Assembly (NCBI RefSeq): GCF_044324875.1
Contig: NZ_CP172185.1
From: Escherichia coli
GTDB lineage: Bacteria; Pseudomonadota; Gammaproteobacteria; Enterobacterales; Enterobacteriaceae
Length of the DNA stretch: 64,000 nucleotides
Strand: one strand, 5' to 3'
Made by a program: the position numbers. Shown in pieces: positions 427-1,005 of the stretch (positions are counted from its first letter, which is position 1; each line of letters opens with the position of its first letter).

Positions 427-1005
427 TTACCAGGATGATTCTCAAAACAGCACAAATTATCAAAGATGTTTTTTTCGGGAGCGATCCCGTTGACGCCAGA
501 GCCACCAAGGGGTGACGCGCGTCACATTTCTATTCATAAGTAGCGTTAATCATTCATATCACGAATATTTTCTTGTCAGCGAAAAAAATTGCGGATAAGG
601 TGATGAACACATCAGATTTCCTGGTGTAACGAATTTTTTAAGTGCTTCTTGCTTAAGCAAGTTTCATCCCGACCCCCTCAGGGTCGGGATTTTTTTATTG
701 TGCATTCAACGATTCACTTCAGAGACGCTGAAGTCATGAATATCCAGTTCGAAGGCATCCGCCAATTCACGCCATGTATGATATTCACGTCCATCGACGC
801 TAACGTGTTCAGAATCGTTCTGGCTGCGATGAACTTCGCTTTCGCTAATTTCATTGATCGCCGCCAGCAGGGCATCGACATCGACGCTGACCTCACGTTT
901 TGCGGTATCGCTGTACTCTTTTGCGGTTTTCATCATCTTTCCTCGCAACCGTTACTCTGGTGTTGCCGCCAGTCGTTAAGTCCGCCTGGCATCTCTTAAG
1001 TATAG

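What the first reader, a model, noticed from the sequence alone, without database searches (positions are those of the whole stretch)
667..696. Strong plus-strand terminator with no plus-strand gene upstream (yedP-yodD intergenic)
A perfect 8-9 bp GC-rich hairpin plus T7 tract reads as an intrinsic terminator on the plus strand, yet both neighbours (yodD upstream at 706-933, yedP downstream from 408) are on the minus strand. It could be a bidirectional terminator serving yodD through the A-tract side, the 3' end of an unannotated plus-strand small RNA from 409-666, or a protective 3' structure. A second palindrome, cttgcttaagcaag, lies just upstream at about 647-660.
Basis: seen in the sequence. 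Interest (0 to 1): 0.35.

Follow-up and report, generated by a model that had tools for sequence, protein, structure and literature searches.

The report
Terminator of the known DsrA sRNA

Summary
The hairpin is real: a perfect 10-bp stem (666-675/681-690, 7 G-C pairs), a 5-nt loop, and T7 at 690-696. It does have a plus-strand gene upstream. Window 606-692 matches Rfam DsrA (RF00014) at 102.5 bits, against a threshold of 60. Window 606-696 is identical to the annotated ncRNA dsrA (b1954) of E. coli K-12 MG1655. The hairpin is DsrA stem-loop 3, its Rho-independent terminator. The 'second palindrome' (really 648-661) is the core of DsrA stem-loop 2.

Published Term-seq puts a very strong plus-strand 3' end at window 690 in all three conditions tested. 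In 75 Enterobacteriaceae sequences the stem stays paired (94% of cells), with compensatory changes at 5 of 10 pairs. Most PGAP-annotated RefSeq E. coli records probably omit dsrA, as the one inspected does, which may explain why the region looked gene-less.

The same Term-seq data show a 50-300-fold weaker yodD 3' end on the minus strand at window 662, 4 nt past the same hairpin. That side has no U-tract, so the end may come from trimming or non-canonical termination.

Verdict: already known, low interest.

The parts
573..578 (+). dsrA promoter -35 hexamer TTGTCA
   Evidence: Read from the sequence. It lies 17 nt upstream of TAAGGT. TTGTnn-N17-TAnnGT sits at the same distance from the RNA start in nearly all 82 Enterobacteriaceae loci. 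The assignment as the dsrA promoter rests on my own knowledge of Repoila & Gottesman 2003, which is cited in PMC4152358 but could not be read here.
596..601 (+). dsrA promoter -10 hexamer TAAGGT
   Evidence: It is too far from consensus to be picked up by the generic scan.
606..696 (+). dsrA gene (small regulatory RNA DsrA)
   Evidence: Rfam RF00014 matches 606-692 at 102.5 bits (gathering score 60), E = 7e-20, full model 1-85. MG1655 annotates ncRNA dsrA b1954 at 2025223-2025313(-), which equals window 606-696 and is 100% identical.
609..627 (+). DsrA stem-loop 1 (7-bp stem, AUUUC loop)
   Evidence: MFE fold and the Rfam structure line.
614..646 (+). DsrA nt 9-41: region complementary to the rpoS mRNA leader; nt about 27-43 also pair with hns mRNA
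   Evidence: RNAduplex against the MG1655 rpoS leader pairs it with -127..-96 at -33.0 kcal/mol, with 0 of 300 shuffles as good. An hns duplex forms around the start codon. This agrees with the description in PMC8468756.
648..661 (+). Palindrome CTTGCTTAAGCAAG: core of DsrA stem-loop 2
   Evidence: It forms a 5-bp hairpin. The stem sequence is almost invariant, 98.9% paired, in 73 distinct homologues, while the loop varies. There is no covariation.
666..690 (+). DsrA stem-loop 3: hairpin of the Rho-independent terminator
   Evidence: In homologues 94% of cells are paired, 5 of 10 pairs have compensatory changes (71 cells), and 0 of 500 shuffles reach the observed score. There are 51 distinct hairpin sequences among 75 homologues. 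SL3 is named as the terminator in PMC4231740 and PMC8468756.
690..696 (+). T7 tract (U-tail of the terminator). The dominant published Term-seq 3' end of DsrA is at 690.
   Evidence: Sequence. Term-seq 3' end at MG1655 2025229(-) equals window 690, with 603,756 / 887,088 / 777,985 reads in LB OD 0.4, LB OD 2.0 and M63 (mapping checked). 70 of 75 homologues have at least 5 T in the 8 nt after the stem.
662..662 (-). Published Term-seq 3' end assigned to yodD mRNA, 4 nt past the same hairpin on the other strand
   Evidence: MG1655 2025257(+) equals window 662(-), with 11,227 reads (LB OD 2.0) and 2,463 reads (M63). It is absent from the LB OD 0.4 list.
706..933 (-). yodD CDS, convergent with dsrA; its stop codon lies 9 nt from the end of the T-tract
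   Evidence: The convergent arrangement, with the yodD end 90-109 nt from DsrA +1, holds in most loci that contain yodD.
1..408 (-). 5' part of yedP, divergent from dsrA

Best explanation
Window 667-696 is the Rho-independent terminator (stem-loop 3 plus U-tail) of the small regulatory RNA DsrA, which is transcribed on the plus strand from about 606. RNA polymerase starts at a promoter at 573-601 and transcribes SL1, the linker and SL2, which carry the rpoS- and hns-pairing sequences. The 10-bp GC-rich hairpin followed by U7 then releases the transcript at about 690-696. In the mature RNA the same hairpin and U-tail protect the 3' end and, as for other Hfq-dependent sRNAs, provide the poly-U that the Hfq proximal face binds. 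Shown here: the identity with DsrA, the fold, its conservation by covariation, and the published 3' ends. Inferred from the literature: the Hfq and stability roles. As a secondary effect, the same hairpin read on the other strand marks the 3' end of the convergent yodD mRNA.
For: Rfam DsrA RF00014 matches 606-692(+) at 102.5 bits against a gathering score of 60, E = 7e-20, over the full model.

The sequence is 100% identical to the annotated MG1655 ncRNA dsrA b1954, in the same yodD / dsrA / yedP context. PMC8545128 lists DsrA with flanking genes yodD and yedP.

The fold gives three stem-loops at -31.9 kcal/mol, z = -5.7. SL3 alone folds at -19.1 kcal/mol, z = -4.5.

The literature describes SL3 as the Rho-independent terminator, and stable SL3 folding is required for DsrA efficiency (PMC4231740; PMC8468756).

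Term-seq finds a plus-strand 3' end at window 690 with 0.6-0.9 million reads in all three conditions.

Across 75 Enterobacteriaceae sequences SL3 is 94% paired. Five of 10 pairs carry compensatory changes (71 cells), no shuffle of 500 reaches the observed score, and all slid controls are far lower. 70 of 75 have at least 5 T in the 8 nt after the stem.

DsrA nt 9-41 are complementary to the rpoS leader (-33 kcal/mol, 0 of 300 shuffles) and pair with hns.

The region is present in 5340 of 5426 complete E. coli genomes.
Against: Nothing contradicts the identification.

Minor points: the dominant Term-seq end at 690 leaves only one U after the stem (an 85-nt RNA). That is shorter than the 87-nt Rfam match and the 91-nt annotation, so the mature 3' end may be trimmed or the method may under-report U-tails.

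The Hfq and stability roles of this particular tail were not tested here.

The homologue set was collected with an exact pattern in SL1, so SL1 conservation carries no information. SL3 was not used for the selection.
Confidence: 0.98

Rival explanations
1. The hairpin also works for the convergent gene. It defines the 3' end of yodD mRNA on the minus strand, either as the pausing or collision element of a bidirectional terminator or as a barrier that stops 3'-to-5' exonucleases. This adds to the DsrA explanation rather than replacing it.
For: Term-seq lists a 'primary' yodD 3' end at window 662(-), 4 nt past the hairpin, in LB OD 2.0 (11,227 reads) and M63 (2,463 reads). The yodD stop codon is 9 nt from the T-tract, and this tight convergent arrangement holds in most Enterobacteriaceae loci examined. 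The minus-strand RNA forms an equally stable hairpin (-20.9 kcal/mol). A class of E. coli bidirectional terminators between convergent genes is reported to depend on a hairpin and polymerase collisions rather than on a U-tract (bioRxiv 10.1101/2022.10.23.513370).
Against: There is no U-tract on the minus side: the tail is GAAACUUG, and all 75 homologues have at most 2 U in 8 nt. The scan finds no minus-strand terminator here. Read counts are 50-300 times lower than for DsrA. An end 4 nt past a stable hairpin is also what exonucleolytic trimming of a longer transcript would leave. The Rho-termination table of the same paper has no yodD entry, but that experiment was done in exponential phase, when the RpoS-dependent yodD is poorly expressed, so it says little either way.
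Confidence: 0.45
2. The terminator belongs to a previously unannotated plus-strand small RNA spanning about 409-666.
For: None beyond the presence of the terminator. Some RefSeq (PGAP) records show no gene here.
Against: The RNA is the annotated DsrA, starting at 606. Its conserved promoter sits at 573-601. Rfam finds nothing above threshold in 409-605. In the curated Term-seq table the plus-strand (window) end at this locus is assigned to dsrA.
Confidence: 0.01
3. A chance GC-rich palindrome or repeat element (for example REP) with no transcript-related role.
For: The simple scan finds about as many terminator-like sites in 1-3000 as in shuffles (4 against 2.9 +/- 1.6).
Against: This site is by far the strongest found in 1-3000. 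The fold z-score is -4.5. Compensatory changes occur across genera. More than 0.6 million Term-seq reads end there.
Confidence: 0.005

Closest known systems
DsrA small RNA (Rfam RF00014; E. coli K-12 gene dsrA, b1954), stem-loop 3
   Same: The 91 nt are identical to b1954, the covariance-model match is full-length, the neighbours are the same (yodD, dsrB and rcsA on one side, yedP on the other), and the three-stem-loop fold and the complementarity to rpoS and hns are the same.
   Different: Nothing. This is the gene itself in another E. coli strain. The nearest difference from MG1655 is 2 nt at window 560-561, upstream of the promoter.
Canonical Rho-independent (intrinsic) terminators of Hfq-dependent sRNAs (for example RyhB SL3, SgrS terminator)
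   Same: A GC-rich stem followed directly by a U-run of at least 7 at the 3' end of a short non-coding transcript. The stem-loop and poly-U act as one module needed for sRNA function (PMC4231740). The poly-U is the Hfq proximal-face site (PMC8468756).
   Different: The DsrA SL3 stem is unusually strong, and many mutations that weaken it increase efficiency (PMC4231740).
Bidirectional terminators between convergent E. coli genes (Ju et al. 2019; ynaJ-uspE model, bioRxiv 10.1101/2022.10.23.513370)
   Same: One hairpin lies between convergent transcription units, with 3' ends mapped on both strands (window 690 + and 662 -), so the two RNAs overlap by 29 nt.
   Different: Here one direction is a textbook intrinsic terminator. 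The other has no U-tract and gives a far weaker 3' end. Dependence on polymerase collision is untested.

Membership tests
DsrA sRNA (Rfam RF00014) | Covariance-model score at or above the curated gathering threshold, over the full model | tested here: met
   102.5 bits against 60, model positions 1-85 of 85, E = 7e-20
DsrA sRNA (Rfam RF00014) | Sequence identity with the experimentally characterised E. coli K-12 dsrA gene and the same genomic context (downstream of rcsA, between yodD and yedP) | tested here: met
   100% identity over 606-696 with b1954; gene order fliR-rcsA-dsrB-yodD-dsrA-yedP
DsrA sRNA (Rfam RF00014) | Three stem-loops, the last being the terminator | tested here: met
   MFE structure with SL1, SL2 and SL3, z = -5.7. 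The extended SL2 helix is poorly conserved (77% paired), which fits the reported conformational equilibrium of SL2.
DsrA sRNA (Rfam RF00014) | Complementarity of SL1/linker to the rpoS leader and of the linker/SL2 region to hns mRNA | tested here: met
   Duplex with rpoS -127..-96 at -33.0 kcal/mol, 0 of 300 shuffles; hns duplex around the start codon, 0 of 300 shuffles
DsrA sRNA (Rfam RF00014) | Hfq binding and regulation of RpoS / H-NS in vivo | not testable with these tools
   Taken from the literature only
Rho-independent (intrinsic) terminator | GC-rich stem with a short loop, followed immediately by a U-rich tract (at least 5 of 8) | tested here: met
   10 bp, 7 G-C pairs, loop of 5, then T7
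Rho-independent (intrinsic) terminator | Transcript 3' ends map at the U-tract in vivo | tested here: met
   Published Term-seq end at window 690(+), 0.6-0.9 million reads in three conditions
Rho-independent (intrinsic) terminator | The structure, not the sequence, is conserved (compensatory changes) | tested here: met
   5 of 10 pairs with double changes, 71 cells, 94% paired, 0 of 500 shuffles, slid controls at 55% paired or less
Bidirectional intrinsic terminator (A-tract / hairpin / U-tract) | An A-tract upstream of the hairpin that gives a U-tract on the opposite strand | tested here: not met
   The 8 nt before the stem contain at most 2 A in all 75 homologues; the minus-strand tail is GAAACUUG. 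No minus-strand call in the scan.
Bidirectional intrinsic terminator (A-tract / hairpin / U-tract) | 3' ends of convergent transcripts on both strands at the same hairpin | tested here: met
   Window 690(+) for dsrA and 662(-) for yodD
Collision-type bidirectional terminator (Ju et al. 2019) | Termination depends on convergent transcription and polymerase collision at a hairpin, not on an intrinsic signal or Rho | not testable with these tools
   Only the model is described. No data for yodD-dsrA were found, and Ju et al. 2019 could not be read.

The most novel reading that the evidence does not exclude
The DsrA terminator hairpin is a functional shared element of a conserved convergent pair. 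Transcription of the RpoS-dependent gene yodD runs into the 3' end of dsrA and produces a 3' UTR that is antisense to the last 29 nt or more of DsrA. DsrA activates RpoS translation, so this could form a feedback in which high RpoS activity damps DsrA output or stability, by polymerase collision or by antisense pairing. My searches of the held library turned up no report of this.
Probability: 0.1. Interest if true: 0.4.

Novelty: already known. Interest (0 to 1): 0.06.

Why it matters
It does not change what is known. DsrA, its three stem-loops and its terminator have been studied since the 1990s. The practical lesson concerns the scan. sRNA genes are missing from many automatically annotated E. 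coli records, so an 'orphan' strong terminator in an intergenic region is a good sign of an sRNA gene and should first be checked against Rfam. The only open point is how yodD mRNA acquires a 3' end at a hairpin with no U-tract, and whether convergent RpoS-dependent yodD transcription affects DsrA.

Tried and rejected
1. An unannotated sRNA from 409-666 is rejected: the RNA is DsrA, starting at 606.

2. Sub-threshold Rfam hits overlapping the hairpin were anti-hemB (25.7 bits against 49.5), Betaproteobacteria toxic sRNA (21.7 against 50) and EF3314_EF3315 (17.4 against 100). All are far below their gathering scores and simply reflect a terminator-like 3' end. The mir-374 hits at 1273-1339 on both strands are a different hairpin.

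3. A canonical bidirectional intrinsic terminator is rejected because the A-tract/U-tract symmetry is absent.

4. I tried to read Ju et al. 2019 (PMC6814526) for a list of bidirectional terminators, and Repoila & Gottesman 2001 and 2003 (PMC95285, PMC262114) for the promoter and the 3' end. None is held. Two earlier requests failed on term format, and one script failed on a file name.

5. PMC11092163 (Rend-seq boundaries) has no supplements held.

6. A literature search for DsrA self-assembly through the SL2 palindrome returned only an unrelated review passage. That idea rests on my memory only and is not used.

7. The extended SL2 helix of the MFE/Rfam model shows no covariation and only 77% pairing, so I do not claim it as a conserved structure.

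Full report
OBSERVATION. The sequence at 661-700 reads gtttc ATCCCGACCC cctca GGGTCGGGAT tttttt attg. Positions 666-675 pair perfectly with 681-690. That gives 10 bp with 7 G-C pairs, or 8 bp if the two outer A-U pairs are not counted. The loop is 5 nt, and the T7 run is 690-696, with its first T closing the stem. The consensus scan lists this as the best terminator-like site in 1-3000, on the plus strand only. The 35-nt segment folds at -19.1 kcal/mol, z = -4.5, and none of 200 shuffles is as stable. The second palindrome, cttgcttaagcaag, lies at 648-661, one base from the stated position. It makes only a weak 5-bp hairpin on its own (-4.6 kcal/mol, z = -1.5).

IDENTITY. The premise 'no plus-strand gene upstream' is wrong. 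A search of 1-3000 against Rfam gives a full-length match of 606-692(+) to DsrA (RF00014): 102.5 bits against a gathering score of 60, E = 7e-20. The K-12 MG1655 record annotates 'ncRNA dsrA, b1954, small regulatory RNA DsrA' at 2025223-2025313(-), between yodD and yedP. Aligned to the window, that interval is 606-696 and is 100% identical. The first difference from MG1655 is at 560-561. The PGAP-annotated RefSeq record that best matches the window lists only yedP, yodD, dsrB and rcsA, and no dsrA. That is probably why the region seemed to lack a plus-strand gene. The locus is present in 5340 of 5426 complete E. coli genomes. PMC8545128 also tabulates DsrA with flanking genes yodD and yedP.

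ANATOMY. The 91-nt RNA folds into three stem-loops (-31.9 kcal/mol, z = -5.7).
- SL1 is 609-627.
- SL3 is 666-690, followed by the U-tail.

[quoted passage not shown] Large-scale mutagenesis showed that DsrA needs stable folding of SL3 for activity on both hns and rpoS (PMC4231740).

As a direct check of function-defining sequence, DsrA nt 9-41 form a -33.0 kcal/mol duplex with the MG1655 rpoS leader at -127..-96, and none of 300 shuffles does as well. The linker/SL2 region pairs around the hns start codon.

Upstream, TTGTCA (573-578), 17 nt and TAAGGT (596-601) sit at the right distance from 606. This arrangement is kept in nearly all related loci. That it is the temperature-sensing dsrA promoter is my own recollection of Repoila & Gottesman 2003, which is cited in PMC4152358 but could not be read.

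EXPERIMENTAL 3' ENDS. The curated Term-seq table of Adams et al. 2021 (PMC7815308, supplementary file 1) lists a 3' end at MG1655 2025229(-), assigned to dsrA. It has 603,756, 887,088 and 777,985 reads in LB OD 0.4, LB OD 2.0 and M63. I reproduced the flanking sequences given in the table from the MG1655 locus and converted the coordinate: it is window 690(+), the first T of the tract. Plus-strand transcripts do end here, in very large numbers.

COMPARATIVE TEST. A scan of one genome per species with a 24-nt SL1 pattern returned 82 Enterobacteriaceae loci, including Escherichia, Salmonella, Citrobacter, Enterobacter, Klebsiella, Buttiauxella and Atlantibacter. From these, 74 distinct sequences plus the window were aligned.

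On that alignment the SL3 helix is paired in 94% of cells. Five of 10 pairs carry changes on both sides (71 cells; for example GACCC/GGGTC changes to GGTCA/TGACC and to GGCG/CGCC). None of 500 shuffles reaches the observed pairing or covariation score. Sliding the 3' partner by one to three columns drops pairing to 21-55%. There are 51 distinct hairpin sequences, and 70 of 75 have at least 5 T in the 8 nt after the stem. SL3 played no part in selecting the loci, so this is independent evidence that the hairpin and U-tract are selected as a structure.

The SL2 palindrome stem is almost invariant (98.9% paired, no covariation, variable loop). The longer SL2 helix of the MFE model is poorly kept (77% paired).

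THE yodD SIDE.
- The yodD stop codon (708-706) is only 9 nt from the T-tract, so yodD transcripts must enter the hairpin.
- The same Term-seq table lists a 3' end at 2025257(+), classed 'primary' for yodD and antisense to dsrA. It has 11,227 reads in LB OD 2.0 and 2,463 in M63, and no entry in LB OD 0.4. This pattern fits the RpoS dependence of yodD.
- That position is window 662(-), 4 nt past the hairpin (…GGGUCGGGAUGAAA).
- The convergent arrangement, with yodD ending 90-109 nt from DsrA +1, is kept in most loci examined.

Against a true bidirectional intrinsic terminator, the minus-strand tail has no U-tract. All 75 homologues have at most 2 U in 8 nt, the scan makes no minus-strand call, and the signal is 50-300 times weaker than that of DsrA. 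An end a few nucleotides past a stable hairpin is what exonuclease trimming leaves. It could also reflect the hairpin-plus-collision mechanism proposed for convergent E. coli genes (bioRxiv 10.1101/2022.10.23.513370). I therefore rate a secondary role in forming the yodD 3' end at about 0.45 and leave the mechanism open.

COMPARISON WITH WHAT IS KNOWN. This is not merely like DsrA. It is the dsrA gene of another E. coli strain. Every testable defining feature was met: the covariance-model score, identity with b1954, synteny, the three stem-loops, and target complementarity. Hfq dependence is taken from the literature. It meets the definition of an intrinsic terminator on the plus strand. It fails the A-tract/U-tract symmetry that defines a bidirectional intrinsic terminator.

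VERDICT. Novelty: already known. Interest: about 0.06. The one residual question is how and why yodD mRNA ends at the antisense face of the DsrA terminator, and whether RpoS-dependent convergent transcription feeds back on DsrA. I give a functional feedback about 0.1 probability and, if true, moderate interest (0.4).

Noticed in passing
window 1296-1320 (hairpin), 1325 (+): A second shared hairpin lies between convergent genes: CTGACTGGTGG-GAAA-CCACCAGTCAG sits between the dsrB stop (1284) and the rcsA stop (1328), with no U-tract on either strand. Published Term-seq puts the dsrB 3' end at MG1655 2024594(-), which equals window 1325, antisense to rcsA, with 57,246 and 160,713 reads. The sub-threshold Rfam 'mir-374' hits on both strands (1273-1339) are this hairpin.
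   Followed up: partly
L001 (NZ_CP024127.1) versus L002 (NC_000913.3): The PGAP-annotated RefSeq record inspected has no dsrA feature, although its sequence is identical. MG1655 annotates it as an ncRNA. Orphan terminators in such records can therefore flag missing sRNA genes.
   Followed up: partly
window 690 (+): The dominant Term-seq 3' end of DsrA is at the first U after the stem (an 85-nt RNA). That leaves almost no U-tail, although the annotation extends to 696 and Hfq is said to bind terminator poly-U. This may be 3' trimming or a bias of the method.
   Followed up: no
window 512-525: A perfect 14-nt GC-rich palindrome, GTGACGCGCGTCAC, followed by ATTTCTATTC lies between the yedP start and the dsrA promoter. 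The scan listed it as a weak plus-strand terminator-like site. Its function is unknown.
   Followed up: no
window 631-665; alignment A2 columns 26-62: The extended SL2 helix of the MFE/Rfam model is poorly conserved (77% paired, many non-pairs). The short palindromic CUUGC/GCAAG stem is almost invariant, with a variable loop. This suggests that the short hairpin or the sequence itself, which includes target-pairing bases, is what is conserved.
   Followed up: partly
L008, L020, L068 (Pseudescherichia vulneris and relatives); L059, L074 (Buttiauxella): No yodD homologue was found next to dsrA in the Pseudescherichia-type loci. In two Buttiauxella loci yodD ends about 220-230 nt from DsrA +1 instead of about 100 nt. 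These are natural cases where DsrA keeps its terminator without a tightly abutting convergent gene.
   Followed up: no
window 706-948 (-): The mechanical ORF for yodD extends 5 codons upstream to a TTG at 948. The annotated start is the ATG at 933, giving 75 aa.
   Followed up: no
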